Origin: an uncultured Thermoleophilia bacterium
Lineage (GTDB): Bacteria > Actinomycetota > Thermoleophilia > UBA2241
Direction: 5' to 3'
Assembly (NCBI GenBank): GCA_963707855.1
Contig: CAVPRQ010000020.1
Location: 41,940 to 105,939 of the forward strand
DNA length: 64,000 nt
A program made the position numbers and the translations under genes. The notes below the pieces were generated by a model. The model saw nothing but the letters and a program-made list of their open reading frames with translations, was not told the DNA's origin and searched no databases. Of this stretch, positions 21,561-60,648 are shown piece after piece; within the stretch, counting starts at the first letter, position 1, and each line of letters begins with the position of its first letter.

Positions 21561-21564
21561 CCCA

Positions 21565-37881: not shown

Positions 37882-37882
37882 C

Positions 37883-38868: not shown

Positions 38869-38877
38869 GAACAGCGC

Positions 38878-39524: not shown

Positions 39525-39527
39525 CCG

Positions 39528-41261: not shown

Positions 41262-41463
41262 CGCCCCCCCTGTCGCTGTTGCCGAATCTACAACACAGGT
41301 GGTCGCCGACGGGCCCATGATTACACGGACGGCAACGACGAGATACTCGACCGACGTCGCTGGTCGCGCGTGACCGACCGGCGATGGCAAGACGAGCGAC
41401 GGCCGCCCGTCGCAGGAGAGGCGGCCGTCGTCCGGTCGTTACGTGTCTCGCGTCCGACTGGGA

Positions 41464-41668
41464 CTACATGCCCATCCAGCCGGAGAACCCCTGGTGCATG
41501 ACGCCGGGGTTCATGTCGCCGCTGAAGCCGCCCATCTGCCTGGGCGTGCATGGCATGGTGCTGGCCGAAGTCGCGGCCAGCACCGTCGGCGCCGGTGGCG
41601 GCCATGGCGGGCGCGGCGACGAAGAGCGCCAAGGCGAAGGCCGCGGCGAGGAGGAGAATCGTCCTCAT
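41464..41668 (-). CDS. small secreted Met/His-rich peptide, frameshifted near 41545
   Basis: MRTILLLAAAFALALFVAAPAMA (signal peptide), then ATGADGAGRDFGQHHAMHAQ, then after a +1 shift MGGFSGDMNPGVMHQGFSGWMGM-TAG. Confidence 0.5.
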
Positions 41669-41737
41669 GAACGTGCCTTCCGCTTCGCTGGTTCAGGGCG
41701 ACGGGCGCCTCCCGATACCAGATGACAGCGGTCTTGA

Positions 41738-43268: not shown

Positions 43269-44431
43269 ATGCTGAAACGCTTCCTTCTGACCCCCGGACC
43301 GACGCCCGTGCCGCCGGAGGTGCTGTCGGCCCTCGGCGAGCCGGTCGTCCACCACCGCGCGCCGCGCTTCACCGAGATCCTCACCGAGGTGATCGCGGGC
43401 CTGAAGTACGTCTACCAGACCGAGAACGACGTGCTCGTCTTCGCCGCCAGCGGCACCGGCGCCATGGAGTCGGCGGTCGTCAACGTCGTGAACCCCGGCG
43501 ACCACGTGCTCGTGGCGAGCATGGGCAACTTCGGCGAGCGCTGGCTCAAGCTGCACGAAGAACTGGGGCGCCGAGGTGACCGCGCTCGAGTACGAGTGGG
43601 GCACGAAGGCCGACCCGGCCGACATCGAGAAGGCGCTCGCCGCCGACCCGGCGATCAAGGCCGTCTACGTGCAGTTCAGCGAGACCTCGACCGGTGTCGT
43701 CAACGACATCCAGGCGATCGGCGCGATCGTCGCCAGGACGCCGGCGATCCTCGTCGTCGACGCGATCAGCGGCCTCGGCGCGACCGACCTCAAGACCGAC
43801 GCCTGGCACGTCGACATCTGCGTCGCCGGCTCGCAGAAGGCGCTCATGGTGCCGCCCGGCCTCGCCTACGTCGCGGTCAGCGAGAAGGCGTGGAAGGTGG
43901 TCGAGGCCTGCACGACGCCGCGCTTCTACTTCGACTACCCGACCTACCGCAAGAAGATGACCGGCGACAGCGCCCAGACGCCGTACACGCCGGCGGTCTC
44001 GCTGATGGTGGCGCAGAACGCCGCCATCGAGCTGATCCGGCAGGAAGGCCTGGAGAACGTCTTCGAGCGGCATCGCTGGCTGGGCAAGGCCTGCAAGGCC
44101 GGCGTGCAGGCGCTCGGCATCGAGCTGTTCGGCCCGGACGACCCCGAGGCGAACAGCGTCACCGCCGTGCAAGGTGCCGGCCGGCGTCGACGGCGGCAAG
44201 ATCACCAAGGTCGCGCGCGACAAGTACGGCGTGTGGCTGGCCGGCGGGCAAGGCAAGCTCAAGGGCCAGATCTTCCGCTTCGGCCACTGCGGCTACTTCG
44301 GCGCCAGCGACATCCTCGTCGGGCTCGGCGTCCTCGAGATGGTGCTCGCCGAGCTGGGCTACGACGTCAAGTGGGGCGCCGGCACGGGGGCCGCGGCGCA
44401 GGTGCTCGCCCAGAGCCCCGTCCAGCTGTGA
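43269..44431 (+). CDS. class V PLP aminotransferase (serine-pyruvate/AGXT family; probable phosphoserine aminotransferase role next to serA), frameshifts near 43565 and 44170
   Basis: MLKRFLLTPGPTPVPPEVLSALGEPVVHHRAPRFTEI..FAASGTGAMESAV.. / ..VQFSETSTGVVNDI..VDAISGLGATDL..VAGSQKALMVPPGLA.. / ..GQGKLKGQIFRFGHCGY.. Confidence 0.82.
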
Positions 44432-44444
44432 GGGGGGTGACGTC

Positions 44445-46050
44445 ATGACCGAACAGAAGAGGGTCCTCGTCAAGGAGAAGCTCGCCCCCGAGGGCGTCAG
44501 GTTCCTCGAGGAGCAGGGCTTCGCCGTGGACATCGGCACCGAGTGGGACGCCGACGAGCTGCTGGCCCGCATCAAGGACTACCACGGCCTGATCATCCGC
44601 TCGGCGACCAAGGTCACCGCCGAGGTCATCCAGGCCGCCGACAAGCTGCAGGTGGTGGGCCGCGCCGGCGTCGGCGTCGACAACGTCGACGTCAAGGAGG
44701 CGACCAAGCGCGGCATCATCGTCGTCAACGCGCCGCAGAGCAACGTGCTCACCGCGGCCGAGCACACGGTGGCCCTCATGATGGCCTGCGCGCGCAACAT
44801 CCCGCAGGCCCACGCCGACCTCAAGGCCGGCAAGTGGGAGAAGGGCAAGTGGGGCAAGGGCGGCGTCGAGCTGCAGGACAAGGTGCTCGGCATCATCGGC
44901 CTCGGCCGCATCGGCTTTCTCGTCGCCGAGCGCGCCAGGGGCCTGAAGATGAAGGTGCTGGCCTACGACCCGTACGTGCCGGCCGAGAAGTTCCACGAAC
45001 TCGGGCTCGACCGCGCCGACTCGCCGAACCAGGTGTACCGCGAGGCCGACTTCATCACCGTCCACCTGCCCAAGAACGCCGAGACCATCGGCTTCGTCGA
45101 CGACGACGCCTTCGCCCAGATGAAGGACGGCGTGCGCGTCATCAACGTCGCCCGCGGCGGGATCATCGACGAGGAGGCGTGGGCGCGGGCGATCGAGAGC
45201 GGCAAGGTGGCCGCCTCGGCGGTCGACGTGTATCCGAAGGAGCCGACCACCGAGAGCCCGTTGTTCACGTACGACAGCGTGGTGTGCACGCCGCACCTCG
45301 GCGCCTCGACGGTGGAGGCGCAGCTGCGCGCCGGCACGATCATCGCCGAGCAGGTGGCCCTGGCGCTCAAGGGCCAGTTCGCGCCCAACGCCGTCAACAT
45401 CCCGCTGGTGCCCGGCGACGAGGCCGACGAGCTGATGCCGTATCTCGCGCTCTGCGAGATGCTCGGCAAGCTCATCGTGCAGGTCGCCGACGGTCCGGTC
45501 GACGGCCGTGGACATCACCTACGAGGGCGTCATCGGCCGTTACGACACGCGCATCCTCACGCTCGGCGTGTTGCAGGGCATGCTGGCCGGCAAGGTCGAG
45601 GGCGAGGTCAACTTCGTCAACGTGGCGGGCATCGCCGAGGAGCGCGGCATCAGCGCCAGGGAGATCAAGCAGCCGGCGGCGGTCGACTTCCTCAACGTGA
45701 TCACGGTGAGCGCGCGCAAGGCCGGCGAGCAGCTCGACGTGGCGGGCACGACGCTGGGCCCCGCCACCGGCCGCGGTTCGTCGGCATCTACGGTCACGAC
45801 ATCGACATCGAGCCGGTGCCGAACATGGTGTTCCTGCGCGCCGAGGCGCAGGTCCCGGGCATCCTGGGCACCATCGGCGCCAAACTGGGCGAGTTCGGCA
45901 TCAACATCTCGCAGGTGACGGTCGCGCCCACCGAAGCCAGGCGAGCCGGGAGTGATGGGGCTCGCCATCAGCCAGCCCATCAGCGACGACCAGCTTGCGC
46001 AGATCATCGCCGCCGCCGGTCTGCTCGACGCCAAGCGCGTGAAGCTGTAG
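44445..46050 (+). CDS. serA: D-3-phosphoglycerate dehydrogenase (long form with ASB and ACT domains), three frameshifts (about 45505, 45775 and 45945)
   Basis: ATG 44445 follows GAGGGGGG. ..GLIIRSATKVT..GRAGVGVDNVDV..GIIGLGRIGFLVA..VNVARGGIIDE..TPHLGASTVEAQ.. then ..ITYEGVIG.. / ..PRFVGIYGHDIDIEP..PGILGTIGAKLGEFGINISQ.. / ..LAISQPISDDQL..KRVKL-TAG. Confidence 0.92.
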
Positions 46051-46109
46051 GCCGAGAGGAGCGGACGCCCGACGGCGCGGGCCGCGGGCGCGACGTGACA
46101 GGCTGACGG

Positions 46110-46139
46110 GGGCGGGGCGGTCCGAGGACCGCCCCGCCC
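46110..46139 (+). terminator. 13-bp perfect hairpin after serA
   Basis: GGGCGGGGCGGTC-CGAG-GACCGCCCCGCCC. Confidence 0.5.
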
Positions 46140-46261
46140 TGCTCCGCCGCCTTGACACGCCGGCCCGGACCGCTAAGCTTCATCCACCTGGGTGGTCTAC
46201 GCGCACGGGACGATGTGAGCCGCCCGGGCAGCGGTGCTCTGCCGGCACGACGGGAGGAACC

Positions 46262-47636
46262 ATGGCGCAGGCGATCGACGACCCCGGCCAGACCGACCTC
46301 GGGGAGGACTTCCTCGGCCACCTCTGGCCGCCGTTCACCCAGCTCCAGGGCCTGAGGCCCGTCATCATGGACCACGCCGAGGGCGCGCTCGTCTACGACA
46401 CCGAGGGCAACGAGTACATCGACGCCTTCGCCAGCCTGTGGACGGTCAACGTCGGCCACGGCCGCAGCGAGATCCACGACGCCATCAAGGCGCAGATGGA
46501 GAAGCTCGCGATCTACCACATCTTCGGGATCGCCAACGAGCCCACGATCAAGCTCGCCGCCAAGGTCGCCGCGCTGCTGCCGGGCGACCTCGACCACGTC
46601 TTCTTCACCCTCGGCGGCGGCGAGTCGGTCGAGACCGCCGTCAAGATGGCGCGCCAGTACCACCGCAACCGCGGCAACGGCACCAAGTACATGGTCCTCT
46701 TCCGCGACCGCGCCTACCACGGCACCACGATGACCTCGACGAGCGCCCAGGGGCTCCCCGTCAACCGGCAGAAGTTCGAGCCCCTGCTGCCCGGGTTCAT
46801 CAAGCTCGGCGCCCCGTACTGCTACCGCTGCGCCTGGCACAAGACCTACGGCGAGGACTGCCGCATGGAGTGTGCCCGCGTCGTCGAGGAGGAGATCGCC
46901 TTCTACGGCGCCGAGAACGTCGGCACCATGCTCGGCGAGACGATGATCGGCACCGGCGGCGTGATCCCGCCGCCGCCCGAGTACTGGCCGATGGTCTGCG
47001 AGACCTGCAAGGCCAGCGACGTCCTCGTCATCAACGACGAGGTGATCACCGGCTTCGGGCGCAGCGGCACCTGGTTCGGCTTTCAGCAGTTCGGCTCCGA
47101 CCCCGACCTCGTGACCCTGGCCAAGGGCCTCTCCTCGGGCTACCTGCCGCTCGGCGCCGTGGCCGCCCGCGAGCACGTCTTCGAGGCCTTCCTCGGCGAC
47201 GGCGAGCAAGGCGTTCATGAGCGGGGCCACCTACAACGGCCACCCGCTCTGCTCGGCCGCCGGCCTCGCCAACCTCGAGATCATCGAGCGCGAGAAGCTC
47301 GTCGAGCGCTGCGCCGAGGTCGGGCCCTACCTGCAGGAGGGCCTGCGCACCCTGCTCAGCCACCCGATCGTCGGCGACGTGCGCGGCGTCGGCCTGGTGG
47401 CCGGCATCGAGTACGTCTCCGACAAGGCGACGCGCGAGTGGTTCCCGCTCTCCGCGGGCGTCGCCGCGCGGATCCGCGACGAGGCCTTCCGGCGCGGCGT
47501 CTTCGTGCGCCTGCTCGGCGGCGGGCACGTCCACGCCGTCGCCCCGCCGTTCATCATCACCCGCGAGCAGATCGACACCATCGTGCGCGTGCTCGACGAG
47601 GCGATCGGCGTGGTCGAGAAGGAGCTCGGCTACTGA
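46262..47636 (+). CDS. class III (omega-type) PLP aminotransferase, frameshifted near 47210
   Basis: ATG follows GGAGGAA. ..DTEGNEYIDAFASLWTVNVGHGR..FFTLGGGESVETAVKMAR..RAYHGTT..LVINDEVITGFGRSGTWFGFQ..VTLAKGLSSGYLPLGAV.. then ORF 47217..47636: ..TYNGHPL..VGDVRGVGL.. Confidence 0.85.
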
Positions 47637-49470
47637 TGGGCGACCTGCTGCGCGTCGACCTTGACGACGGGGACGACCCGCGAGGAGAGCATCGCCGAGG
47701 AGCGCCTGCGCACGCTGCTCGGCGGCAAGGGCATCGGCGCGCGGATGCTCCTCGAGGAGGTCGGCCCCAAGGTCGACCCGCTGGGGCCGGAGAACAAGCT
47801 CATCTTCACGACCGGCCCCCTGAGCGGGACGCAGATGCCGGGCTCGAACCGCTACGGCGTCTTCTTCCTCAGCCCGCAGACCGGCGGCTACGGAGAGGCG
47901 TACGCCGGCGGCAACCTGGCGCCGCAGTTCGCCGGCACGGGCTACAAGGTGGTCGTCCTCGAGGGCCGCTCGCCGGCGCCGGTCTTCGTCGAGGTCGCCG
48001 AGGGGCGCGCCGCGCTGCACCCGGCCGCCGACCTCTGGGGCACCGACACCTACGCGGCCGAGGAGCAGCTCAAGGCGCGCGTCGGCGACCCCAAGGCGCA
48101 GGCCTGCGTGATCGGCCCCGCCGGCGAGAACCTGCTGCGCTTCGCCTGCATCGAGAACAACAAGTGGCGCAGCCTCGGACGCGGCGGCGCCGGCGCGGTG
48201 ATGGGCTCGAAGAACGTCAAGGGCGTCGTCTTTCACGGGGCGCGCAAGCCTGCGCTCGCGCGCCCCGACGCGTTGCGCGCGCTGATCCGCGAGATGGTCG
48301 CCGCCAGCGAGGACCATCCCACGGTGAACGCCTACAAGCGCATGGGCACCGTCCAGATGGTCCGCGTCACCAACGGCATGAACATGTTCCCGACGCGCTA
48401 CTGGACGCGGGGCCACCTCGACGACTTCGAGCCGCTCTCGGCCGAGACCATGCTCGCGACCTACCACGTGAAGAACACGACCTGCCCGCCCTGCTTCATC
48501 GCCTGCGGCAACCTCTGCCGGGTGCCGGACGACCACGCGACCCTCGCCGGCCTCGAGATCGAGGGGCCCGAGTTCGAGACGATCTACGCGTTCGGCGGCC
48601 TCTGCGAGATCGTCGACTTCGCCGAGGTCATGCGCCTCAACGACATCTGCGACCGCCTGGGCGTCGACACGATGACCGCCGGCAACCTCTGCGGGCTGGC
48701 CATCGAGGCCTCGCGCCGCGGGCTCATCGATCTCGAAGCTCGACTTCGGCGACGCCGACGGCGTCGCCGCCTTCCTTGAGATGATGGTGCGGCGCGAGGG
48801 TGTCGGCGACCTCTTCGCCGACGGCGTCCTGCGCGTCGAGGAGGAGATCCCCGAGCTCAAGGGGGTCGCCGTCCACGTCAAGGGCATGGAGCCGGCCGGC
48901 TACGACCCGCGCGTCTCCAAGGGCATGGCGCTCGGCTACATCACCTCGGCCCGCGGCGCCTGCCACCTGCGGGCCACGGTCATGAAGGCCGAGCTCAGCG
49001 GGATCATCCCGATCGACGCGGTCGAGGGCAAGGCGGCCATCTACGCCGACTGGGAGGACCGCTTCGCGATCCAGGACGCCCTCATCTACTGCCGCTTCTA
49101 CCGCGACTTCACGACCTGGCCCTTCCTCACGGCCGTCGTCAACGCCGCCGTGGGGACCGACTACGCCGAGGACGAGCTCAGGGCGCTCGGCGCGAGCATG
49201 ATCAGCGACTCGCACCTCTTCAACGAGCGGCGCGGCTTCGGGCTCGCGCAGGAGCGCCTGCCCGCCTGGGTCACGGAGCGGCCCATCGCCGACAAGGACG
49301 GCAAGGAGTCGCTGACCACGACGGCCGAGCTCGAGACCATGCTGCGCGAGTACTACGCCGTACGCGGCTGGGACGTACCCGGCCGGCTGAGCGGCGCGAA
49401 CGTGCGCGCCGGATCGCGGCGCAGTCGCCGCGACCGAGCACGGGGGATCGGGAGGAGGATGAGGGCATGA
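47636..49470 (+). CDS. aldehyde:ferredoxin oxidoreductase family enzyme, copy 2; frameshifts near 47660 and 48740
   Basis: ATG 47636 overlaps the aminotransferase stop (TGATG). MGDLLRVDL / TTGTTREESIAEERLRTLLGGKGIGARMLLEE..RYGVFFLSPQTGGYGEAYAGG..CPPCFIACGN..EGPEFETIYAFGGLC.. / ..GMEPAGYDPRVSKGMALGYITSARGACHLR.. Confidence 0.85.
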
Positions 49471-50823
49471 GCGGCACGGGTGGAGCGAGGGTCGAGCTCG
49501 CCGTGCCGTACGGCGACGGCGAGCTGCGCTTCTCGCTGCCCCGGGCCAACCTGGCCGGTGTGATCGAGGCCGGCGCCGGTACGGCTTGCACGCCGGTCGG
49601 CCCCGACGACGTCACCGGCCTGAAGCCGCCTCCGCCGCCGGCCCGACCCCGGCCGAGGAACAGGCCGAGATCCGGCGCGCCCTCGCGGAGCCGATCGGCG
49701 CGCCGCGCCTCTCCGAGCTCGCGGAGCGCGCCACCAGAGCCGTCATCGTCGTGAGCGACGTGACCCGGCCCTGCCCGTCGCACAAGTTCCTGCCCGCGCT
49801 GCTCGACGAGCTCCACGCGCTGCCCTCCGATGCCGTCTCGATCCTCTTCGCCCTGGGCAGCCACCGCGCCCACACGCCGGAAGAGCAGGCGCGTCTCGTC
49901 GGCGACGAGGTCGTCCGGAGGGGCGTACGGCTGCTCGATCCGGACCCGACGACTGCGTCCCGGCCGGAACCACGAGTCGGGGCACGCCTCTCTCCGTCTT
50001 CCGGCCTTATCTCGAGGCCGACCTGCGCGTCTGCACGGGCAATATCGACTACCACTACTTCGCGGGGTTCTCGGGCGGCGCCAAGGCGGTCGTCCCCGGC
50101 CTCTGCACCTACGACACGATCCGCGCCAATCACGGCATGATGCTGAGTCCGTCCGCGCGCGCCGGGATCCTCGACGGCAACCCGGTGCGCGAGGACATCG
50201 ACGAGGCCGGCGGCATCCTGGGTATCGACTTCATTCTCAACGTCGTGCTGGACGAGGAGAAGCGGATCGTCCACGCGGTCGCCGGCGACTGTCGTGCGGC
50301 GCACCGCGCCGGCGTCGCCCTGTACGACGCGCGCTGCGACCTGCGCGTCGACGCGGCGGCCGACGTCGTCGTCGCCTCCCCCGGGGGCGCGCCCAAGGAC
50401 ATCAACCTCTACCAGGCGCAGAAGACCCTCGACAACGTCGCCGGGGCCGTCCGTGACGGCGGCGTCATCATCCTCGTCGCCCGGTGCGGCGAAGGGCTCG
50501 GCAACGCGGTCTTCGAGCAGTGGATGGCGGAGATGGAGGAGCCGGACGACCTCGTGCAGCGGATCCGGCGCGAGTTCGTCCTCGGCGGGCACAAGGCGGC
50601 GGCGATCGCCGCGCTCCTGACGAGGGTCGACCTGTTCGTCGTGTCGGACCTGCCGCACGACATGGTGACGGGCATGCACATGACGCCGTTCGCCACCGTC
50701 GACGACGCCGTCGCGGCGGCGCTGGCGCGCTGCGGCGACGGCGCGCGTGTGCTGGTGGTGCCGCACGGGAACCGCGTGACGGCCCGGGACTGGACGCGTC
50801 ACACGAGATGGAGGCTGAGATGA
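49467..50823 (+). CDS. larA: LarA-like nickel-pincer-dependent racemase/epimerase (DUF2088), frameshifts near 49615 and 49950
   Basis: ATG 49467 follows GGGAGGAGG and overlaps the AOR stop (ATGA). ..VELAVPYGDGELRFSLP.. / ..IGAPRLSELAERATRAVIVVSDVTRPCPS..LFALGSHRAHT.. / ..TGNIDYHYFAGFSGGAKAVVPGL..NGMMLSP..GGAPKDINLYQAQK..HKAAAIA.. Confidence 0.8.
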
Positions 50824-51496
50824 GCGCCAAGCGTGGAGAGCAGCGCGTTGCCATGCAAACGCCGTTCGAGAACCCGGTATCGAGCCTGCCGACGACTGCG
50901 CAGAAGATCCTCGTGGCCGCCCGACGCCTGCTGATGGAGGGCGGCTACGGGTCGGTGACGCTCGAGAGGGTCGCCGCCGAGGCGGGCGTGAACAAGGCCT
51001 CGATCCGCTACAACTTCGGCAACAAAGCGGGCCTGGTCGGCGCGCTCGTCGACTTCATGCTGCACGAGGAGTTCGAACGCGACCTGGCGGCCTCCCGTCG
51101 ACGCCGCACAAGGACCTCGTCCATGCCCTGATCGATGGGAAGCGTCACATCATCGACGCGATGGACAACCTGCGTGGCTTCTTCGACATCCTCCCGCACG
51201 CCTTGCGCGACGACGATCTGCGCCACCGCATCGCGGCGTGCTATCCGTGGTGGGCAGAGCAGAACCTGATGCTGCTGGAGCTGGAGGCCTCCGGACCCGA
51301 GGGCAGGCCGCAGGTGCTGCGCGGCCTGGGGCGGCTGGTGAGCGCGGTGGTCGACGGCCTCTCGGTCCAGGCCGGCCTCGATGGCGACCAACACGACATG
51401 GACGCGCCGCTCAAGGCCCTTGAGTTCCTGCTCGATCGCGCCCTGCCGGACCTGGAGGGGCTGGCAGGGGCCGCAAGCACAGGTGAGCGGGACTGA
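50820..51496 (+). CDS. TetR/AcrR family transcriptional regulator, frameshifted near 51085
   Basis: ATG 50820 overlaps the larA stop (ATGA). ..TAQKILVAARRLLMEGGYGSVTLERVAAEAGVNKASIRYNFGNKAGLVGALV.. (HTH), then ORF 51161..51496. Confidence 0.8.
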
Positions 51497-51555: not shown

Positions 51556-53028
51556 TCACTCGCGCAAGCCGAGCTCCCGTTCCGCTTCGTCGATGATCGC
51601 TCTCAGCTTCTCGGGCACGCCTTCTGGCAGCGGCTCGGGCTGATGCGTCTCCAGGATCCGCCTGGCCTCTGCCACGGAGCGCTCGTAGATGCTGGTCGAC
51701 CCCGAGGCGGTCCAGTCCTCCCGGACCCTGCGGTCGATGAGCTTCGACTGCGACTGGCTACGCATGCCCTTGAACGTGTCGTCGTGCGAGAGGAAATCGC
51801 TGAAGGGCCCGATGTCGGCGATGACGTCGACCGAGAGGGTCTCGTCGTCGACGCGGATACCGGGGACGCAGTACTTGACCATGCGCGCGAACTCGGCGTC
51901 CATGACGAGCTGCGCGTAGTCGATGGTGACGCCCGACTCCAGCATCCCCAGCCCGTAGATCAGATTGGCTCCTGCCAACGCCGGTAGGAGGCTGGTGATC
52001 GTCTTCTCGTGGCCGGATTGGGCGTCTGCCACTTTGGAGTCGCCCTACGCCCCCGCGACCCAGCTGGGCAGGAGGTAGAACCGCGCCAGGCAGGCGACCC
52101 CGGCGCCGATCATGCCGCACTCGGGGCTGCCGACGGACGCGCTGGCGAAGCGCAGGTCCATGGCCGTCGTGGACGAGCCATAGATGACAGGCGTACCGCG
52201 GACCGTGAGTTGCGCGAGCGTGATCCCGGCGAGGACCTCGGCGTTGTGTGACACGAGCGTCCCCGCGAGATTGACCGGGGATGATCCTCCGGCCATCGCC
52301 ATCGACAGGACGTTGACGGGGATCCCGCCGCGGGCGCCCTCGATGATGATGCGGCAGCAGTCGGCGACGAGCTTGAGCGGGCTCACCGGGCAGGTCAGGA
52401 AGGAGAGGATCGGCCGCTGCCGCAGGCGTTCGTGGCCGCCGACGATCGCCGCCGCCATGTCGATCATCTTACGGGCGCAGAACCCTGACAGCGGGCCGAT
52501 GGTCGCGTGCTTCGTCGTGTTCGTGAAGATGGCCTCGGCGTTGTGCAGGGCCGCGGTGTCCTGAGGGACGTCATGGGCGCCGAGCGGGCGCTCGACGACG
52601 TCGATCTCGGGCAGCGCGTCGATGATCCGCGTGCAGTCGGCGACGTCCTGCTTGCGCGACTCGTGCAGCTCGCCCGTGTACGGGTCGACGACCTGGATGC
52701 CCTCGCCGAAGTTCGTGAAGCCGACACGGCCGTCCTCGAGCACCACGTCCTGCTCCGGAACACGTCCGCACATGACCACCTTGGGAGGCGCCGAGCGGAT
52801 CGCGTCCTCGACGACGTGCGGGGCGAGGCGTACCACCTTGCGTTCGCGGTCGACCCTGGCGCCCCCGCCCTCGAAGATCGCGAGGGCCTCGTCGTCCTCG
52901 ACGAAGACTCCCGTCTGTGACAGGACCTCGAGCGTCGCGAGGTGGATCTCCTGCAACTCGTCGGGGGTGAACACTTCGAGCCTGAAGCCGCCGCTCTTGC
53001 GCGCGCCCGCGCGGGGGTTGCGTCTCAT
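51556..53028 (-). CDS. mttB: trimethylamine:corrinoid methyltransferase MttB, pyrrolysine type (one in-frame UAG read-through)
   Basis: ORFs 52045..53028 and 51556..52032 share a frame and are separated only by TAG. ..[131 protein letters not shown].. No frameshifts. Confidence 0.9.
52045..52047 (-). other. in-frame UAG (predicted pyrrolysine codon) of mttB
   Basis: Minus strand reads ..GTC GCG GGG GCG TAG GGC GAC TCC AAA GTG.. The TAG aligns with Pyl in Methanosarcina MttB (..[20 protein letters not shown]..). Confidence 0.85.
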
Positions 53029-53666
53029 GTCGCGCCTCCGCCCAGCAGCGCGTCGATCTTCTTGACGCCGTCGTTGGCGTCCTCGGCGTAGGCGTCGGCG
53101 CCGATCTGGTCGGCCCAGCGCTGGGTGGCGGGAGCGCCGCCGACCACGGTCTTGAAGGAGAGGCCCTCCTCCTTGATCACCTTGATGACCTTCTTCTGCT
53201 CCTCCATCGTCGTCGTCAGGAGGGCGCTCATGCCGATGATGTCGGCGTTCCCCTCCTTGGCCTTGGCGATGAAGGTCTGGGCGGGGACGTCGCGGCCGAG
53301 GTCGGTGACCTCGTAGCCGTTGGCCTTGAGGTAGGCGATCACGATCGCCTTGCCGATGTCGTGCACGTCGCCCTGCACGGTGCCGATCACGACGCGTCCC
53401 TTGGTGGTCGCCGCGCCGGCCTCGAGGGCGGCGTTGGTGACCGCGGTCGCCCCCGCCATGGCGTCGGCGGCCATCATCAGCTCGGGGAGGAACATCTCGC
53501 CGCTCTCGAAGAGCTCGCCGACCTCCTGGATGCCGCGCACGAAGCCGTTCTGCATGATGTCGGCGGGGGTCATGCCCGCGGCCAAGGCACGCTTGGCGAT
53601 GTCTTCGGCGGCCGCACGGTCGGCGCCCACGATCGCCGCGCTGGCTTCCTGATAGATATCGGACAT
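53025..53666 (-). CDS. mttC: methyltransferase cognate corrinoid protein (MttC-like by adjacency)
   Basis: The ATG at 53666 is preceded by AGGAGG at good spacing. ..MFLPELMMAADAM..VIGTVQGDVHDIGKAIV.. (DxHxxG B12 motif) ..IIGMSALLTTTM..VVGGAP.. The stop overlaps the mttB start (ATGA). Confidence 0.85.
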   Translation of the reverse strand: MSDIYQEASAAIVGADRAAAEDIAKRALAAGMTPADIMQNGFVRGIQEVGELFESGEMFLPELMMAADAMAGATAVTNAALEAGAATTKGRVVIGTVQGDVHDIGKAIVIAYLKANGYEVTDLGRDVPAQTFIAKAKEGNADIIGMSALLTTTMEEQKKVIKVIKEEGLSFKTVVGGAPATQRWADQIGADAYAEDANDGVKKIDALLGGGAT

Positions 53667-53715
53667 GAGCATTGCCTCCTCGGGGCGGGATGTCGGATCG
53701 TCGTCCTGGGCCGTT

Positions 53716-54342
53716 CTACGCCACCAGCGCCTTGGCCTTGTCGACCGCGGCGGCGGCGTTGGCGCCGTAGCCGTCGGCGCCGATCTCGTCGGCGTAGGCC
53801 TGGGTCACCGGGGCGCCGCCGATCATCACGCGGACGGTCGCGCGCAGGCCGGCGTCCTTCAGGGCGGCGATCGTGGCCACCATCTTGGGCAGCGTCGTGG
53901 TGAGCAGGGCGCTCATGCCGATGATCTGGGCCTGGTGCTCGGCGACTGCGGCGACGAACTGGGCCGGGGTCACCCCGGTGCCGAGGTTGACGACCTCGAA
54001 GCCGGCGCCGGCGAGCATCATCCCGACGAGGTTCTTGCCGATGTCGTGCAGGTCGCCCTCGACGGTGCCGATGACCACCGTGCCGAGGCTCATCGAGTCG
54101 CCCGCGGCCATATGCGGCCGGAGGAGGTCGAGGGCGCCCTGCATGGTGCGCGCGCTGAGCAGCACCTCGGGGATGAAGCAGTCGCCGGAGCGCATGCGCT
54201 CGCCGACCACCTCCATGCCGGGCAGGAGCGCGCCCTCGAGGATCTCGCGCGCGCTGGCGCCGCTCGCGAGGAGCGCGGTGGTGAGGGCGTTCACGGTGCC
54301 CGCGTCGCCCTCGATCAAAGCCTGCTTGAGCTGGTCTTTCAC
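53716..54342 (-). CDS. mtbC: methyltransferase cognate corrinoid protein (MtbC-like by adjacency)
   Basis: GTG start follows GGGAG. ..CFIPEVLLSARTM..VIGTVEGDLHDIGKNLV..IIGMSALLTTTLP..MIGGAPVTQAYADEIGADGY.. Confidence 0.85.
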   Translation of the reverse strand: MKDQLKQALIEGDAGTVNALTTALLASGASAREILEGALLPGMEVVGERMRSGDCFIPEVLLSARTMQGALDLLRPHMAAGDSMSLGTVVIGTVEGDLHDIGKNLVGMMLAGAGFEVVNLGTGVTPAQFVAAVAEHQAQIIGMSALLTTTLPKMVATIAALKDAGLRATVRVMIGGAPVTQAYADEIGADGYGANAAAAVDKAKALVA

Positions 54343-54394: not shown

Positions 54395-55790
54395 TCAGTT
54401 CAGTCCCGTCCGCTCCTTGAAACGCTCGACGCAGTTGATCGGCACGTCGAGCACCCGGGCGATGTTGAACTTGGCCTCGATGAGGTTCGCCTGCCACGGG
54501 TGACTGATGGCGTAGCTGTGGATGCGGCCGAAGCCGTGCTCGCTGCGGATGTCGGTCATCACCGCCACGTCGGAGAGGTCGAACGGCGTCACGCCGAGCT
54601 TGTCGGCGACGTACTGCTTGGCCTCCTTGAGGCGCATTCCGCGGGTCATCTGCATTCGGGCCACGAGATCTCCCCCGGCCCGGATACCGCCCATGCCCGC
54701 TGCCTGCGCGTGAGCGTTGTGCATCCCGTGAGGGTCGCCCGAGCCCACCTACAAGCCGTCCAGGCGCAGAAGGTCGACGCAGGCCTTGGCGCTCCGGCAG
54801 GAGGCGTCGCCCGGCGGGTGCACGAACATCGGCACCCCGCCGACGCCCATGCCGACGTTCATGTGCACGGGGATCTCGGCGACGTCCATGCAGGGCTTCA
54901 CGATGGCGATCGCGCGGGCCATGTTCCAGGCGCAGCTCTTGCCGGTGTTGACGTTGACGACCGGCCCGTACATCGTCGCCCCGGCCTTCTGCACCACCTT
55001 CATCTGCTCGAGAGGCCACATGCCGGCGAGCCGCTTGCCGTCGTACTCGAGCTGGCCGTGCATGCCGAGCACGAACTCGCCCGCCATGCCGAGCTGGACG
55101 CCCATGTCGGGGTACTTCTTGCGGATGATCTCGGTCGCCCGCAGGGTGGCCCAGAACTCGGGGTCGCCGGAGGCGCCGGTGGTGTCGAAGTCGATCGCGT
55201 CGGCGCCGGCCTCCCACATCGCGTCGGCCATGCGGACGGCGTCCGAGACGGCCATCTCGGCGGCCTCCTCGGCGGCCGCGCGCGCCTCGGGGATCTTGCC
55301 CTCGGGCAGGAGCGTCGACCAGTTCTCGCAGGGGCCGTCGTCCTTGGCGTAGAGGCCGAGGTTGGGCATGATGCCGTACTGCATCGGTGCGATCGTGCAG
55401 AGCAGGGCGTCGTGGAGGCGCTGCGCCTCGTAGGGCATGATCGTGCGGATGACCTTGAGCGAGTAGTCGCCGGGGCAGAGCTCGAGGAGGTCGGCGCCCA
55501 TCCACTGCTCGTAGGACTGCATGTCCTGGGTGCGCGTGGCGTGCGTCTTCATGCCGCTGCCGTCGCAGCTGAGGACGATCTCGTCGCCGAGGTCGACGCC
55601 GACGAAGCGCGCCGGGCTGGCGTAGATGTCGAGCGAGGTGCTCCTGCTCGTCGGCGGTGAGGGGCTCGACCTTGGCGCGCTTCACCGCCTGGGCGACGCC
55701 GTCCTCGATGTCGGCGCGGAGCTCGCTCCGCGTCATGCGGGCGATCGAGCCGTCGCCCATGCGCGTGGGTATGCGTGTCTCTCCTGTCAA
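54395..55790 (-). CDS. mtbB: dimethylamine:corrinoid methyltransferase MtbB, pyrrolysine type (one in-frame UAG) with one frameshift near 55628
   Basis: TTG 55790 follows GGAGGGAAGG. (M)TGETRIPTRMGDGSIARMTRSEL.. / ..MQYGIMPNLGLYAKDDGP..IDFDTTGASGD..GMAGEFVLGMHGQLEYDGKRLAGMWP..NVGMGVGGVPM..LRLDGL-TAG-VGSGDPHGM..AGGDLVARMQMTRGMRLKEAKQYVADKLGV.. This is colinear with Methanosarcina MtbB. Confidence 0.88.
54749..54751 (-). other. in-frame UAG (predicted pyrrolysine codon) of mtbB
   Basis: Minus strand reads ..GAC GGC TTG TAG GTG GGC TCG GGC GAC CCT.. The TAG aligns with ..VDGI-O-IGVGDPLGM.. of archaeal MtbB. Confidence 0.85.
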
Positions 55791-56479: not shown

Positions 56480-57990
56480 ATGTCAGAGCACAGCCCGACT
56501 CCTGACCTCCGCACCCTCACCCCACGGAGGGCCGAGCAGCCGCTCTCCGCCGGCCGGCTCGCCCGGCTGCGGCAGGCCACCCTCACGATCCTCGAAGAGG
56601 TCGGTGTCCACGTACCTTCTGCGAAGGCGCGCGAGATCTTCCACGGGCACGGGGGCGTCGTCGGCGACGACGGCGTCGTGAGACTGCCCGCTGACCTCGT
56701 TGAGCGCGCGATGGCGTCTGCACCGCGCTCGTTCGTGCTCGGTGGGCGAGAGCCCCGCCTCGACCTGCTGCTCGATGGAACACGCAGCTACGTCTGTACG
56801 ACAGGGGTCGGCGTGCACGTCGTCGACCCGGTCGACGGCCAGCTGCGGCCCTCGCGGGCCGAGGACGTCGCTCGCCTGGCGCGGGTGTGCGACGGGCTGC
56901 CGCTGGTCGCCTTCTACTGGCCACTGGTGAGCGCCCAGGACCACGGCCTTGCGGCGCCGCTGGCCGAGTGCCACGCCGGCCTGACGAACACCGTCAAGCA
57001 CGTCCGCGGCGGCACGACCGTGCGGCCGGCGCTCGCGCGCTACGTGGTCGAGATGGCGCAGGCCGTGGCCGGCGGAGCCGACGGCTGCCGCCGCCGGCCA
57101 CCCGTCTGCGCCAACATCTGCACGATCAGCCCGCTGGCGCACGACGAACACGGGCTCGACTGCGCCTTGACCTACGCGGCCGCAGGCATCCCCGTCAGCT
57201 TCATGGCGATGACCACGATGGGCTCGGTCGCGCCTGCCAGCGTCGTCGGCGCCCTGGTGCAGGGAGACGCCGAGGTGGTCAGCGGCATGGTGCTGCTGCA
57301 GCTCGCCTTCCCGGGGACGCCAGTCATGCACTCGGTGCTGATCTCGCTGATGGACCCGGCGACCGGCGGCTACATCAGCGAGCTGGCGCCGCCGGTCGAC
57401 TGGCTCGCGACGCAGGTCGCGCACGCGTGGGGCGTCCCCTGTCTTGGAGGCGGCGTCGTGATCGGCGACGAAGCCGGCACCGGATGGGTCTCCGGGCGGA
57501 GAGCCGGCGAGGGCGCCCTGCTCGCCCACCTCGCGGGCAGCGAGCTCTGCGGCTTCATCGGCCTGGCCGGCGGGGCCATGGTGCAGTACCCCGAGCTGCT
57601 CGTGCTCGGCTGCGAGGCGCTCGAACTGGCCGCGGAGACCATGGCGGCGATGGAGTTCGACGAGGCCGACCTCGCCCTCGACGTCATCCGCGAGGTCGGA
57701 CCGCGCGGTCACTACCTCAAGCAGCGCCACACGCGTGAGCACCTGCGCGCCCAATCGTGTGCCAGTGTGGGCGCGCCTGCGCGGGCCCACCCCCGACGGT
57801 GCGGCGCTCGCTGACCTCGCGACGCACGCCTCGCGCGGTCTGCACCCGGACGCCGCCCGCGCCGCCGCCCTCGAGGAGTACCAACGGCTTGAGCGCGACC
57901 ACCATCCGGCGCCACTGCCCGCCGACGTCAGGCGCGAGCTCGACGAGCTGCTTGCGCGCGGCCGACCGCGAGGCGGCCTATCTGACATGA
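56480..57990 (+). CDS. non-pyrrolysine MttB-superfamily methyltransferase (paralog A), frameshifts near 57745 and 57958
   Basis: ..LTILEEVGVHVPSAKAREIF..ECHAGLTNTVKHVRGG..RRRPPVCANICTISPLAHDEHGLDCAL..FMAMTTMGSVAPASVVGALVQGDAEVVSGMVL.. At the Pyl-aligned site it reads ..VPCLGGGVVIGDEAG.. (Val, no stop). Confidence 0.85.
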
Positions 57991-58151
57991 GCGTCCGGGC
58001 CGCAAGGCGCCCGTAGCAACACACTAGGCACGGGGCCCACCGGAGCATTCGCTTCGACCGTGTACTTCACACCCGGTTCTGTCCGGAGCCGCGTCTCTCA
58101 CTGGGCGCATGGCGACCTGACCTGCTCGAGGACTCTCAAAGAGGGGGGAAG

Positions 58152-59846
58152 ATGAAGCCTGCGGACATCGTTCTCACCAATGCGCGCGTATACACAGTCG
58201 ACCAGAGTCAACCCTGGGCGCAGGTAGTGGCCGTCGATGGTGAGAGCATCGTCTACGTGGGGACTCAGAAGGACCCCACGTGGGAGAGGTTCATCGGCCC
58301 GGGGACGAACGTGTCCGACATGCACGGACGGCTCGTCCTGCCGGGCATGATCGATAGCCACACCCATCCGCGCCTCGTCGCCATGAGTTCGTGGCGTGTG
58401 ACGTTGCCTTGGACCTACGACAAGACCGAACTGTTCGCCTGGCTGGGGCAATACGCCGCAGCCCACTCCAGGGATGAGGTGCCGTTCATCTGGGCCAACT
58501 ACTACCCGACCGCGATGTTTGGCGACGAGGGTCCGCACAAGGAGGACCTTGACGCCTACGTCTCCGACCGCCCGGTGCTGATCGTGGAGTTCACGGGCCA
58601 TTCCTGCCTCGTGAACTCCAAGATGCTCGAGCTCATGGACGTCGACAAGAACACGCCCGACCCCGAGCCGGGCGTGGCCGTCTTCGTGCGCGACGCCGAG
58701 GGCAACGCCACCGGGTGGGTGAAGGAAGGGGCTTGGCGCTACTTTGCAGGCCACATGTATGCGGCCCTCAACTGGGCGCCGGCGCAGGAGGTGGCCCCCG
58801 AGCTCCTCAACGGATTCCTTGAGTTCCTCTCCTCCAGGGGTGTGTGCGCTCTGTTCGACGCGGGGGGCAGCGATGGCTTCATGGGCAGTGAGGACACCTA
58901 CAAGGCGTTGGCCGAGCTGGACCGTCGAGGCGAGTTGCACATGTACTGCGAAGGCTCGAACCGGTTCCTTGGCGTGGACGATCTGCCCGCGAAGATCGCC
59001 GAACTGCGGAACTGGCAAACCAAGTACGGCAGCAGGCACATCAGCCTGCGCACCATGAAGTTCTTCCTCGACGGGATGACCGAGACGGGGACGGGCGCGG
59101 TACTCGAGCCGCATAGCAACGACCCTGGGGGCACCGACTATGGCCCCCTCTACATGAGCGAGGACGACCTCGTTGCCTGCATGCTCGCCCTCAACGAGGA
59201 GAACCTCGACCTGCACATCCATGTGACCGGTGACCGCGCCTTCCGCACTGCCTGCAACGCCGTCGAGAGGGCACAGCAGCAGCTGGGCGACGCCTGGAGG
59301 GTCCAGGTCACACTCGCGCACTGCATGCTAGTCGACCCCGCCGACATGCCACGGGTCGCCAAGCTGGGCATCATCGTCAACTGGTCTCCACACTGGTCGG
59401 GCGGCTACTTCGGCACGGAGTCGGCCGAGTGGCTGGGCCAGGATCGCTTCAACAGGATGTACCAGTTCAACCCGATCATCAGCACCGGCGGCATTGTCGC
59501 CCTCAGCAGCGATGTCGCCAGCCAGTATGAGGCGCCGCGTGCCGACCCCTTCCTCGGACTTCAGGTCGGCCACACGCGCATCGATCCTTGGTGGCCTATG
59601 GGCGTTCGCGAACCTGCGTCAGGCTGCCTGGCGCTGAGCGACCTGGTCAAGGGCTATACGCTCAACGGCGCCATCCAGCTGCGAAGGGCCGAGACGATGG
59701 GCTCGATCGAGGTCGGCAAGCTCGCGAACATGGTCATCCTCAACAAGGATCTCTTCAGCCTTGCGGGCGACCAGATCCCGTCTGCGCAGCCCGAGGCAGT
59801 ACTGTTCGAGGGCAGGCTCGTTCACGGCACGCTCTTGCTTTCGTGA
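58152..59846 (+). CDS. amidohydrolase-3 (YtcJ-like) family metal-dependent hydrolase
   Basis: ATG follows AGAGGGGGGAAG. ..ADIVLTNARVYTVD..GRLVLPGMIDSHTHP..FFLDGMTETGTGA..DLHIHVTGDRA..TLAHCMLV..VALSSDV..GSIEVGKLANMVILNKD.. Intact 564 aa, with visibly lower GC than the surroundings. Confidence 0.82.
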   Translation: MKPADIVLTNARVYTVDQSQPWAQVVAVDGESIVYVGTQKDPTWERFIGPGTNVSDMHGRLVLPGMIDSHTHPRLVAMSSWRVTLPWTYDKTELFAWLGQYAAAHSRDEVPFIWANYYPTAMFGDEGPHKEDLDAYVSDRPVLIVEFTGHSCLVNSKMLELMDVDKNTPDPEPGVAVFVRDAEGNATGWVKEGAWRYFAGHMYAALNWAPAQEVAPELLNGFLEFLSSRGVCALFDAGGSDGFMGSEDTYKALAELDRRGELHMYCEGSNRFLGVDDLPAKIAELRNWQTKYGSRHISLRTMKFFLDGMTETGTGAVLEPHSNDPGGTDYGPLYMSEDDLVACMLALNEENLDLHIHVTGDRAFRTACNAVERAQQQLGDAWRVQVTLAHCMLVDPADMPRVAKLGIIVNWSPHWSGGYFGTESAEWLGQDRFNRMYQFNPIISTGGIVALSSDVASQYEAPRADPFLGLQVGHTRIDPWWPMGVREPASGCLALSDLVKGYTLNGAIQLRRAETMGSIEVGKLANMVILNKDLFSLAGDQIPSAQPEAVLFEGRLVHGTLLLS

Positions 59847-60552
59847 CGTGCAGCAAGTGCTCAGTCACACGAGCCGGTTTGAGGTGTGTTCGCCAGGACG
59901 TGACACGAACCCCGAGGAGCCCCTTGGCGGTGGCCACGGCCTCGATCGCGTCCTCGGCGTAGCCGTCGGCGCCGATCTCGTCGGCCCAGGCGCGGGTCGT
60001 CGGGGCGCCGCCGATCATCACCTTGACCGAGTCCCGCAGGCCGGCGGCCTTGAGGGCCTCGATCGTCTTCTGCTGGTTGGGCATCGTCGTCGTCAGCAGG
60101 GCGGTGAGGAGGAGGAGGTCGGGGGAGAGCTCGCGGCACTTCGCGACGAAGGTCTCGACGGGGACGTCGCAGCCCACGTCGGTGACCGTGAAGCCGGCGG
60201 CGCTGAGCATGCTGCAGACGATCGTCTTGCCGATCTCGTGGATGTCGCCGGCGACGGTGCCGGCGACGGCGACCCCGAGCGAGCGGCTCGCCCCGCCGGA
60301 GGCGTCGAGGGCGGGCTCAAGGACGGCGACCGCGGCCTTCATCGCCTCGGCCCCCTGGACGAGCTCGGGGAGGAAGAACTCGCCGCGGGCGAAGAGGTCG
60401 CCGACCTCCTCGATGCCCTTGACGAAGCCGAGGTCGAGGATGTCGACCGCGGCAAGGCCGGCGTCGAGGCCCTGCTGGGCGAGCTCGGCCGCGAGCTCGG
60501 CCTCGCCGTCGAGCACGGTCTGCTTCATCTGGGCGTAGAGATCGTTGCTCAC
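59755..60552 (-). CDS. third corrinoid (B12-binding) protein; true 3' end probably near 59860-59900
   Basis: MSNDLYAQMKQTVLDG..FFLPELVQGAEAM..VAGTVAGDIHEIGKTIV..LLLLTALLTTTMP..MIGGAPTTRAWADEIGADGYAEDAIEAVATAKGLLG. After that the ORF runs on as non-family sequence and overlaps the amidohydrolase 3' end. Confidence 0.8.
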   Translation of the reverse strand: MSNDLYAQMKQTVLDGEAELAAELAQQGLDAGLAAVDILDLGFVKGIEEVGDLFARGEFFLPELVQGAEAMKAAVAVLEPALDASGGASRSLGVAVAGTVAGDIHEIGKTIVCSMLSAAGFTVTDVGCDVPVETFVAKCRELSPDLLLLTALLTTTMPNQQKTIEALKAAGLRDSVKVMIGGAPTTRAWADEIGADGYAEDAIEAVATAKGLLGVRVTSWRTHLKPARVTEHLLHVTKARACRERACPRTVLPRAAQTGSGRPQG

Positions 60553-60648
60553 GTCAGCCTCCTCCTGAAGAAGTCCTCTGCTGCTCTACGGACCGGGCAC
60601 CTGTCGTCGTGAGCTCCCTCCGACGATGAACACCGGGCGGTCACGGCG

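What the first reader, a model, noticed from the sequence alone, without database searches (positions are those of the whole stretch)
52045..52047. In-frame UAG in mttB exactly at the pyrrolysine position
Two ORF-track pieces (52045..53028 and 51556..52032) share one frame and are separated only by TAG. The joined protein reads ..[13 protein letters not shown][TAG][36 protein letters not shown].. As I recall it, Methanosarcina MttB reads ..[10 protein letters not shown][Pyl][36 protein letters not shown].. at this point. The rest of this 1.47 kb gene has no indel, although the assembly is indel-rich. A random stop would not land on this residue.
Basis: partly seen in the sequence, partly recalled or inferred. 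Interest (0 to 1): 0.88.

Follow-up and report, generated by a model that had tools for sequence, protein, structure and literature searches.

The report
Pyrrolysine codon in an actinobacterial mttB
The in-frame TAG in this trimethylamine methyltransferase gene is a genuine pyrrolysine codon, and a second one sits in the neighbouring dimethylamine methyltransferase gene, in an uncultured high-GC Thermoleophilia bacterium; this is a correct call but a known kind of recoding.

Summary
TAG at 52047..52045 (minus strand) interrupts an otherwise continuous 490-codon mttB (51556..53028). It aligns exactly with the pyrrolysine residue of the solved Methanosarcina barkeri MttB (7XCL).

The joined protein scores 734.6 bits on the NCBIfam Pyl-type MttB model (cutoff 525). 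Rfam's mttB PYLIS model begins exactly on the TAG.

I found a second in-frame TAG (54751..54749) at the Pyl column of an mtbB gene. It lies in the same operon, which reads mtbB, corrinoid protein, corrinoid protein, mttB.

All 85 MttB and 55 MtbB homologues in 80 related loci carry TAG at these columns. Nearly all of these loci are Thermoleophilia metagenome-assembled genomes (MAGs). Substitutions downstream of the TAG concentrate at third codon positions, so the frame is read through.

The window holds no pyl genes and no tRNA. Two close relatives carry them elsewhere in the genome. One MAG with an 86% MttB orthologue has pylT, pylSc, pylSn, pylB, pylC and pylD. Another, with an 87% orthologue, has pylT, pylSc, pylSn and pylC.

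TAG also ends ordinary genes here, so decoding must be partial or conditional.

Pyl-type mttB and mtbB in Actinobacteriota MAGs, and PylRS in two Actinobacteria, are already published. I rate this a new member of a known kind, of modest interest.

The parts
51556..53028 (-). mttB, a trimethylamine:corrinoid methyltransferase of 490 codons plus a TGA stop. The ATG at 53028 overlaps the upstream gene's TGA (ATGA).
   Evidence: translation. (7xcl_A E=6.7e-119, residues 3-484). (TIGR02369, 734.6 bits against a cutoff of 525).
52045..52047 (-). In-frame TAG at codon 328, inferred to encode pyrrolysine.
   Evidence: the query X aligns to the X (Pyl) of 7xcl, and to K in the 7xcm chain; position 1 of the PYLIS_3 model. 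TAG in 85 of 85 homologues.
51948..52047 (-). Match to Rfam RF02510 PYLIS_3 (the mttB pyrrolysine insertion sequence).
   Evidence: 74.7 bits against a gathering score of 38, model positions 1-100; fold z-score only -1.74, so the match reflects sequence and position rather than structure.
53025..53672 (-). mttC-like cognate corrinoid protein, 215 aa.
   Evidence: TIGR02370, 221.1 bits against a cutoff of 215.3.
53716..54342 (-). Second corrinoid protein (MtbC/MtgC-like), ending in an ordinary TAG stop at 53716..53718.
   Evidence: protein 6 (NF047996 212 bits, MtbC 185 bits, TIGR02370 183.8 bits, all below their cutoffs)..
54395..55790 (-). mtbB, a dimethylamine:corrinoid methyltransferase. 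The proposed TTG start at 55790 follows a GGAGG. The gene carries a 1-nt insertion near 55635 relative to four orthologues.
   Evidence: protein 7 (TIGR02368, 400 bits against a cutoff of 369.1). (alignment showing the extra C).
54749..54751 (-). Second in-frame TAG, at the Pyl column of mtbB (..LRLDGL-TAG-VGSGDPHGM..).
   Evidence: position 1 of PYLIS_2, whose consensus reads UAG-IGVGDPMGM. TAG in 55 of 55 homologues.
54652..54751 (-). Match to Rfam RF02509 PYLIS_2 (the mtbB pyrrolysine insertion sequence).
   Evidence: 68.7 bits against a gathering score of 36; fold z-score -1.15.
50898..51496 (+). TetR/BetI-type regulator, convergent with mttB and frameshifted in this assembly. Its role in controlling the operon is only inferred.
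   Evidence: protein 5 (BetI 33.6 bits). (TetR_N and TetR_C_6).
56480..57814 (+). Divergently transcribed non-Pyl member of the MttB superfamily, with a sense codon (Val/Ile) at the Pyl column.
   Evidence: protein 8 (TIGR02369, 260.6 bits, below the 525 cutoff). (32% identity, X aligned to V/I).
59755..60552 (-). Third corrinoid protein, part of the neighbouring non-Pyl methyltransferase cluster.
   Evidence: protein 9 (TIGR02370, 214.3 bits, just under the 215.3 cutoff; MtgC 216.9 bits, below its 310 cutoff).

Best explanation
This is a methylamine-demethylation operon of an uncultured Thermoleophilia (Actinomycetota) bacterium. It encodes, in order, MtbB, a corrinoid protein, a second corrinoid protein (MttC-like) and MttB.

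Both methyltransferase genes carry one in-frame UAG. A tRNA-Pyl with a CUA anticodon translates that UAG as pyrrolysine. A split pyrrolysyl-tRNA synthetase (PylSc plus PylSn) charges the tRNA, and PylB, PylC and PylD make pyrrolysine from lysine. These genes lie elsewhere in the genome.

The Pyl residue sits in the active site of each TIM-barrel enzyme. There it binds and activates trimethylamine or dimethylamine, so that the methyl group passes to the Co(I) corrinoid protein.

Shown here: the position of both TAGs, their conservation, the coding signal downstream of them, the cognate corrinoid genes, and complete or near-complete pyl gene sets in close relatives.

Inferred: pyl genes in this exact genome, actual Pyl insertion, substrate specificity, and partial or condition-dependent suppression. 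The last point follows because TAG also terminates ordinary genes here.
For: The TAG aligns to Pyl in 7XCL over a continuous alignment of 482 query residues. MttB scores 734.6 against 525 on the curated Pyl-type model, and MtbB scores 400 against 369.1. Both Rfam PYLIS models start exactly on the TAGs.

TAG is present in 85 of 85 MttB and 55 of 55 MtbB homologues across the window and the fetched loci. Downstream of the TAG, 64% (mttB, 40 orthologues) and 72% (mtbB, 33 orthologues) of nucleotide differences fall at third codon positions.

The window is collinear with Thermoleophilia MAG contigs through ilvC, an aminotransferase gene and serA at 81 to 87% nucleotide identity.

MAG AS06rmzACSIP_445 carries an 86% MttB orthologue (L028). 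On another contig (L089) it has tRNA-Pyl, PylSc, PylSn, PylB, PylC and PylD, all five proteins above curated cutoffs. MAG MFD00032.bin.1.63 carries an 87% orthologue (L007). On the contig that also holds a Pyl-type mttB paralogue, it has tRNA-Pyl, PylSc, PylSn and PylC.

Ellenbogen et al. 2023 (PMC10805028) report that Actinobacteriota MAGs express Pyl-encoding mttB and mtbB.
Against: The 64-kb window contains no pyl gene and no tRNA, and none lies within 10 kb of mttB in any Thermoleophilia locus. Pyl decoding in this genome therefore rests on relatives.

TAG is not depleted as a terminator: about 6 of 53 genes end in it, with no nearby back-up stops. Suppression therefore cannot be complete.

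mtbB carries a frameshift in this assembly.

The predicted PYLIS structures are no more stable than shuffled sequence at a convincing level.
Confidence: 0.9

Rival explanations
1. The TAG is a sequencing or assembly error in an error-rich long-read assembly, and the true codon is a sense codon.
For: The window has many frameshifts in conserved genes.
Against: The visible errors are indels, not substitutions. The same TAG occurs at the same column in 85 of 85 homologues from independent short-read and long-read assemblies. A second TAG sits at the Pyl column of mtbB.
Confidence: 0.01
2. The TAG is a true terminator. The gene is either split into two polypeptides (327 aa plus about 158 aa from the GTG at 52032) or is a decaying pseudogene.
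For: TAG is used as an ordinary stop elsewhere in the window. A GTG lies four codons after the TAG.
Against: No ribosome-binding site or gap separates the pieces. The four codons between the TAG and the GTG are conserved (GDSK or GDAK). The frame is continuous in all homologues, and downstream differences concentrate at third codon positions. In 7XCL the two parts form one continuous chain, with Pyl between them.
Confidence: 0.04
3. The UAG is read through, but not as pyrrolysine. This genome would have lost the pyl genes or never had them, and a near-cognate or other suppressor tRNA would insert a standard amino acid.
For: No pyl genes are visible in the window. The pyl locus is unlinked to mttB in this lineage, so it could be lost independently.
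Against: Close relatives with 86 to 87% MttB orthologues keep tRNA-Pyl and PylS, and one of them also keeps PylBCD. Strict conservation of TAG, rather than drift to a sense codon, across dozens of species implies selection for what TAG encodes.
Confidence: 0.04

Closest known systems
Methanosarcina barkeri MttB (PDB 7XCL/7XCM), the archetypal Pyl-containing trimethylamine methyltransferase
   Same: The two proteins are homologous over their full length (E=6.7e-119). UAG/Pyl is at the identical column, and the flanking motif is nearly identical (PSxVAG-x-O-xDxKVxDxQxGHEKT). A cognate corrinoid protein gene lies adjacent.
   Different: The host here is a bacterium with 70% GC. The pyl genes are unlinked. 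In bacteria the methyl acceptor is presumably tetrahydrofolate rather than coenzyme M (general knowledge, not tested here).
Bacterial Pyl systems of Desulfobacterales and Firmicutes (for example the Desulfobacteraceae locus L044; Acetohalobium and Desulfitobacterium in the literature)
   Same: PylS is split into PylSn and PylSc. mttB and mtbB carry in-frame TAG. TAG is retained as an ordinary stop. The nearest MttB outside Thermoleophilia is from Desulfobacteraceae, at 60 to 63% identity.
   Different: In L044, L081 and L082 the genes pylT, pylSc, pylB, pylC, pylD and pylSn form one cassette next to the methyltransferase genes. In the Thermoleophilia relatives, pylSc overlaps the end of a cell-wall amidase gene. 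There, pylSn, pylT and pylDCB lie 2 to 8 kb away, and the whole set is far from mttB.
Actinobacteriota MAGs of Stordalen Mire that express Pyl-encoding mttB and mtbB (Ellenbogen et al. 2023, PMC10805028), and the 'two Actinobacteria' with PylRS (Guo et al. 2022, PMC9630628)
   Same: It is the same lineage: the Stordalen MAG bog_752 (locus L006) carries an 88% MttB orthologue with the TAG. The gene pair is also the same.
   Different: Those papers inferred Pyl from ORF truncation or from counting PylRS genes. A term search of the 2023 paper found no mention of pylS, pylT or pylB. This window is a different, unnamed species, with at most 90% MttB identity to any species representative.
Non-Pyl MttB superfamily (for example Desulfitobacterium MtgB, PDB 2QNE/9YCE, a glycine betaine methyltransferase)
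   Same: It has the same fold family and partners with a corrinoid protein. A member sits 3.4 kb away, at 56480..57814.
   Different: These proteins have a sense codon at the Pyl column and score below the TIGR02369 cutoff. The gene under study scores far above it and has the TAG.

Membership tests
Pyl-type trimethylamine methyltransferase MttB (NCBIfam TIGR02369) | Full-length match above the curated equivalog cutoff | tested here: met
   734.6 bits against a cutoff of 525, profile positions 1-469 of 469.
Pyl-type trimethylamine methyltransferase MttB (NCBIfam TIGR02369) | A single in-frame UAG at the column of Pyl334 in M. barkeri MttB | tested here: met
   X aligns to X of 7xcl_A; position 1 of PYLIS_3.
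Pyl-type trimethylamine methyltransferase MttB (NCBIfam TIGR02369) | An adjacent cognate corrinoid protein (MttC) | tested here: met
   TIGR02370, 221.1 bits against 215.3. The genes overlap by ATGA.
Pyl-type trimethylamine methyltransferase MttB (NCBIfam TIGR02369) | Pyrrolysine actually present in the protein, and trimethylamine used as substrate | not testable with these tools
   This needs proteomics and an enzyme assay.
Pyl-type dimethylamine methyltransferase MtbB (NCBIfam TIGR02368) | A match above the curated cutoff, with an in-frame UAG at the Pyl column | tested here: met
   400 bits against 369.1. PYLIS_2 starts on the TAG. TAG in 55 of 55 homologues.
Pyl-type dimethylamine methyltransferase MtbB (NCBIfam TIGR02368) | A reading frame that is otherwise intact | tested here: not met
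   a 1-nt insertion near 55635 relative to four orthologues. It is most likely an assembly error, given the frameshifts throughout the window, but a real pseudogene cannot be excluded.
Pyrrolysine-decoding organism (pylT, pylS, pylBCD) | The genome encodes tRNA-Pyl(CUA), PylS (or PylSn plus PylSc), PylB, PylC and PylD | tested here: inconclusive
   These genes are absent from the 64-kb window, and the rest of the source genome is not available. The full set is present in MAG AS06rmzACSIP_445 (L028 plus L089). A partial set is present in MAG MFD00032.bin.1.63 (L007/L041 plus L083).
PYLIS cis-element (Rfam RF02510 and RF02509) | A match above the gathering score immediately 3' of the UAG | tested here: met
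   74.7 against 38 bits, and 68.7 against 36 bits.
PYLIS cis-element (Rfam RF02510 and RF02509) | A stable conserved stem-loop that promotes read-through | tested here: inconclusive
   Searches give z-scores of -1.74 and -1.15. Several model pairs are non-canonical. The score is carried mostly by conserved coding sequence.

The most novel reading that the evidence does not exclude
This window may represent a large and barely described clade of pyrrolysine-decoding soil and peat Actinomycetota (Thermoleophilia, Bog-752-like). It would have an atypical, dispersed pyl locus: pylSc translationally coupled to a cell-wall amidase, pylT with pylDCB on the opposite strand, and the whole set unlinked to the methyltransferases. 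It would have up to three Pyl-type mttB paralogues per genome and up to four mtbB paralogues, with no depletion of TAG stops. Such organisms could be major non-methanogenic consumers of methylamines in wetlands. They would also need a still unknown way to limit read-through of ordinary TAG stops.
Probability: 0.5. Interest if true: 0.5.

Novelty: new member of a known kind. Interest (0 to 1): 0.35.

Why it matters
For annotation, standard gene callers will split mttB and mtbB into two ORFs each, and both should be joined with Pyl at the TAG.

For biology, it adds a well-supported case of genetic-code expansion in Actinomycetota, a phylum for which the literature I found reports only a count of two PylRS genomes and one metatranscriptome remark.

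Related MAGs come from bogs, lakes, soils and digesters, and thousands of related PylSc sequences exist in metagenomes. These bacteria may therefore compete with methylotrophic methanogens for tri- and dimethylamine, which bears on methane budgets.

The dispersed pyl locus and the undepleted TAG stops also make the lineage a useful test case for how bacteria tolerate an ambiguous stop codon.

Tried and rejected
1. ARAGORN on the window and on 60 related loci looked for pylT near mttB. It found none in any Thermoleophilia locus, only in the Desulfobacteraceae locus L044.

2. tblastn with the L044 PylSc, PylB, PylC, PylD and PylSn against the window and the 80 loci gave no hits outside L044.

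3. The first PylSc homologue search, seeded from Desulfobacteraceae, returned high-GC candidates (P0099, P0111). Their loci L081 and L082 are 64.5% GC, and their MtbB is only 44 to 45% identical to the window's. I rejected them as the wrong lineage.

4. The lineage's own PylSc was reached only through the 50%-identity representative library and a second homologue search.

5. Two exact-sequence look-ups of window proteins, meant to find the source assembly, returned nothing. The source genome therefore could not be searched.

6. I examined PYLIS secondary structure as independent evidence and set it aside as weak.

7. I considered genome-wide TAG reassignment and rejected it, because TAG ends about 6 of 53 genes without back-up stops.

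8. I considered horizontal transfer of an isolated island and judged it unlikely. Flanking housekeeping genes (ilvC, serA) are collinear with Thermoleophilia MAGs at 81 to 87% identity.

Full report
**The observation**

On the minus strand the sequence reads ...GTC GCG GGG GCG TAG GGC GAC TCC AAA GTG..., with the TAG at 52047..52045. Translating 53028..51556 in one frame gives 491 codons. There is a single internal stop at codon 328 and a terminal TGA.

The second piece starts at the first GTG, four codons after the TAG, and no other stop intervenes. The ATG at 53028 follows a GGAGG and overlaps the TGA of the upstream gene (ATGA).

**What the gene is**

A phmmer search against PDB sequences gives M. 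barkeri trimethylamine methyltransferase (7xcl_A) at E=6.7e-119, over residues 3-484 of the query. The query's X pairs with the X (pyrrolysine) of 7xcl, and with K in the 7xcm chain. The local alignment reads [27 protein letters not shown] against [27 protein letters not shown].

The joined protein scores 734.6 bits on NCBIfam TIGR02369, the Pyl-type MttB equivalog, whose cutoff is 525. The non-Pyl relatives MtgB (2QNE, 9YCE) score far lower.

Rfam's PYLIS_3 model, which begins at the mttB UAG, matches 52047..51948 from model position 1 at 74.7 bits against a gathering score of 38. I treat this only as confirmation of position. The match is carried by conserved coding sequence, and the predicted fold is not clearly better than shuffled sequence (z=-1.74).

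**A second Pyl codon in the same operon**

Upstream on the same strand lie three genes:
- A corrinoid protein at 53025..53672 (TIGR02370, 221 bits against a 215.3 cutoff).
- A second corrinoid protein at 53716..54342.
- A gene at 54395..55790 that scores 400 bits on TIGR02368, the Pyl-type dimethylamine methyltransferase MtbB (cutoff 369.1).

The MtbB gene has its own in-frame TAG at 54751..54749, in the context ..LRLDGL-TAG-VGSGDPHGM... Rfam PYLIS_2 starts exactly on that TAG, at 68.7 bits against 36. Its consensus after the UAG translates to IGVGDPMGM, the known MtbB context.

A window-wide scan found only these two in-frame TAGs with coding signal on both sides in the same frame. The single TGA hit is two adjacent genes in one frame, and there was no TAA hit.

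**The assembly is frameshift-rich**

Five conserved genes between 43.5 and 50.8 kb each match one protein family across two adjacent frames. They are serA, two aminotransferase genes, an aldehyde:ferredoxin oxidoreductase gene and a LarA-type racemase gene. mtbB itself carries one extra C near 55635 relative to four orthologues.

The errors seen are indels, not substitutions.

**Relatives**

A scan of one genome per species (GTDB representatives) with the N-terminal 327 residues returned 80 loci. Nearly all come from uncultured Thermoleophilia or Actinomycetota MAGs from bogs, lakes, soils and digesters. They include the Stordalen Mire MAG bog_752. The best identity is 90%, so the window's species is not itself a representative.

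Every MttB homologue in these loci has TAG at the Pyl column, 85 of 85 including paralogues. Every MtbB homologue does too, 55 of 55. Several MAGs hold up to three Pyl-type mttB paralogues. One locus, L048, holds four mtbB copies in 20 kb.

Across 40 mttB and 33 mtbB orthologues, 64% and 72% of nucleotide differences downstream of the TAG fall at third codon positions. The downstream frame is therefore under protein-coding constraint and continuous with the upstream part.

The window is also collinear with two Thermoleophilia MAG contigs through ilvC, an aminotransferase gene and serA, at 81 to 87% nucleotide identity. It therefore belongs to this lineage and is not a foreign island.

**The decoding machinery**

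The window has no tRNA gene at all and no pyl gene. No Thermoleophilia locus has pylT or pyl genes within 10 kb of mttB.

I took the canonical cassette from a Desulfobacteraceae locus, L044 (pylT, pylSc, pylB, pylC, pylD, pylSn). The first PylSc search led to the wrong lineage. A search of the 50%-identity representative library then exposed high-GC, often frameshifted PylSc fragments and one intact sequence, P0124.

Searching with P0124 found about 2,900 relatives. Among them were entries that NCBI names as PylS large subunit of 'Thermoleophilia bacterium' and 'Actinobacteria bacterium'. Two of these tie directly to MAGs that carry orthologues of the window's mttB.

- **P0271** lies on contig_76141 (CAVPIV010000007.1) of MAG MFD00032.bin.1.63. 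The same contig holds the Pyl-type mttB paralogue L041, and the same MAG holds the 87% orthologue L007. The locus has PylSc (307 bits against 178), PylSn (117 against 51), tRNA-Pyl(CUA) and PylC. After that the contig turns into 30% GC sequence, which I read as a chimeric end.
- **P0387** lies on JAAZAR010000071.1 of MAG AS06rmzACSIP_445. That MAG holds the 86% mttB orthologue and an 80% mtbB orthologue (L028). The locus has PylSc, PylSn, tRNA-Pyl(CUA), PylD, PylC and PylB, with all five proteins above curated cutoffs.

So the lineage decodes Pyl. Whether this exact genome does remains inferred.

**How it most likely works**

MttB and MtbB are made full-length when tRNA-Pyl inserts pyrrolysine at the UAG. 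The two enzymes demethylate trimethylamine and dimethylamine onto their corrinoid partners.

TAG is also an ordinary terminator here. About 6 of 53 genes end in it, including the corrinoid gene inside this very operon, and none has a nearby back-up stop. Suppression must therefore be partial or conditional.

Conditional expression of the pyl genes is described for Acetohalobium; that statement rests on my own knowledge and was not tested here. A BetI-type TetR regulator lies convergent to mttB. Any role for it is speculative.

**Comparison with what is known**

Pyl-type mttB and mtbB in bacteria are long established. Guo et al. 2022 count two Actinobacteria among PylRS-encoding genomes (PMC9630628). 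Ellenbogen et al. 2023 state that some Actinobacteriota MAGs at Stordalen Mire express Pyl-encoding mttB and mtbB, identified by ORF truncation. A term search of that paper found no mention of pylS, pylT or pylB (PMC10805028). A full-text search for 'pyrrolysine' with 'Thermoleophilia' found only one unrelated paper.

This is therefore a new member of a known kind. The features that look less familiar belong to the lineage rather than to this codon:
- The pyl locus is dispersed. pylSc overlaps the stop of a cell-wall amidase gene by 4 nt. pylSn, pylT and pylDCB lie apart, with a corrinoid protein gene and a radical SAM gene between them.
- The Pyl methyltransferases are expanded into several paralogues per genome.

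**Verdict**

My confidence that this is a genuine Pyl codon is about 0.9. Interest is modest, at 0.35.

Noticed in passing
window 54749-54751 (minus strand), within mtbB 54395-55790: A second in-frame TAG lies at the pyrrolysine column of a dimethylamine methyltransferase gene, in the same operon.
   Followed up: yes
window 43549-50796 and about 55635: The assembly is frameshift-rich. serA, two aminotransferase genes, an aldehyde:ferredoxin oxidoreductase gene and a LarA-type racemase gene each span two frames. mtbB has one extra C relative to four orthologues.
   Followed up: partly
window 56480-61854: A neighbouring non-Pyl methyltransferase cluster is present. It holds an MttB-superfamily gene with a sense codon at the Pyl column (56480-57814, +), an Amidohydro_3 gene (58017-59846, +), a corrinoid protein gene (59755-60552, -), and a further MTTB-family piece (60652-61854, -) that matches only profile positions 124-436.
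   Followed up: partly
window 3891-4062 (minus strand): An M-box (magnesium) riboswitch, RF00380 at 144.9 bits, lies directly upstream of an mgtE-like gene at about 2548-3915.
   Followed up: no
window 35600-41700: This stretch of about 6 kb has weak codon-position GC signal in every frame, although overall GC is 70%. It holds only short recognisable pieces (ECF sigma region 4, DoxX, DUF3465). It could be heavily frameshifted or atypical sequence.
   Followed up: no
window 1269-1271, 12565-12567, 14399-14401, 31047-31049, 53716-53718: These ordinary genes end in TAG, and the next in-frame stop lies 41 to more than 500 codons away. There is no back-up stop, although the lineage decodes UAG as Pyl.
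   Followed up: partly
L083 13600-20858 (contig_76141 of MAG MFD00032.bin.1.63): GC drops abruptly from about 70% to about 30%, right after pylC. This looks like a chimeric contig end that cuts off the rest of the pyl cluster in that public MAG.
   Followed up: partly
L083, L084, L085 and L089 around the pylSc gene: In the Thermoleophilia pyl loci, pylSc starts 4 nt before the stop of an Amidase_3/PG_binding_1 gene. pylSn, pylT and pylDCB lie 2 to 8 kb away on the other strand. In L084, L085 and L089 a corrinoid protein gene and a radical SAM gene lie in between. This differs from the compact cassette seen in L044, L081 and L082.
   Followed up: partly
L048 4700-20200: This 20-kb stretch of a Thermoleophilia MAG holds four mtbB paralogues next to a Pyl-type mttB paralogue.
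   Followed up: no
window 19185-23384 (minus strand): By my reading of the translations, this cluster encodes an iron-containing alcohol dehydrogenase, a 4-hydroxybutyrate CoA-transferase-like protein and a 4-hydroxybutyryl-CoA dehydratase-like protein. I did not check this with a family search. Several of the genes are split by frameshifts.
   Followed up: no
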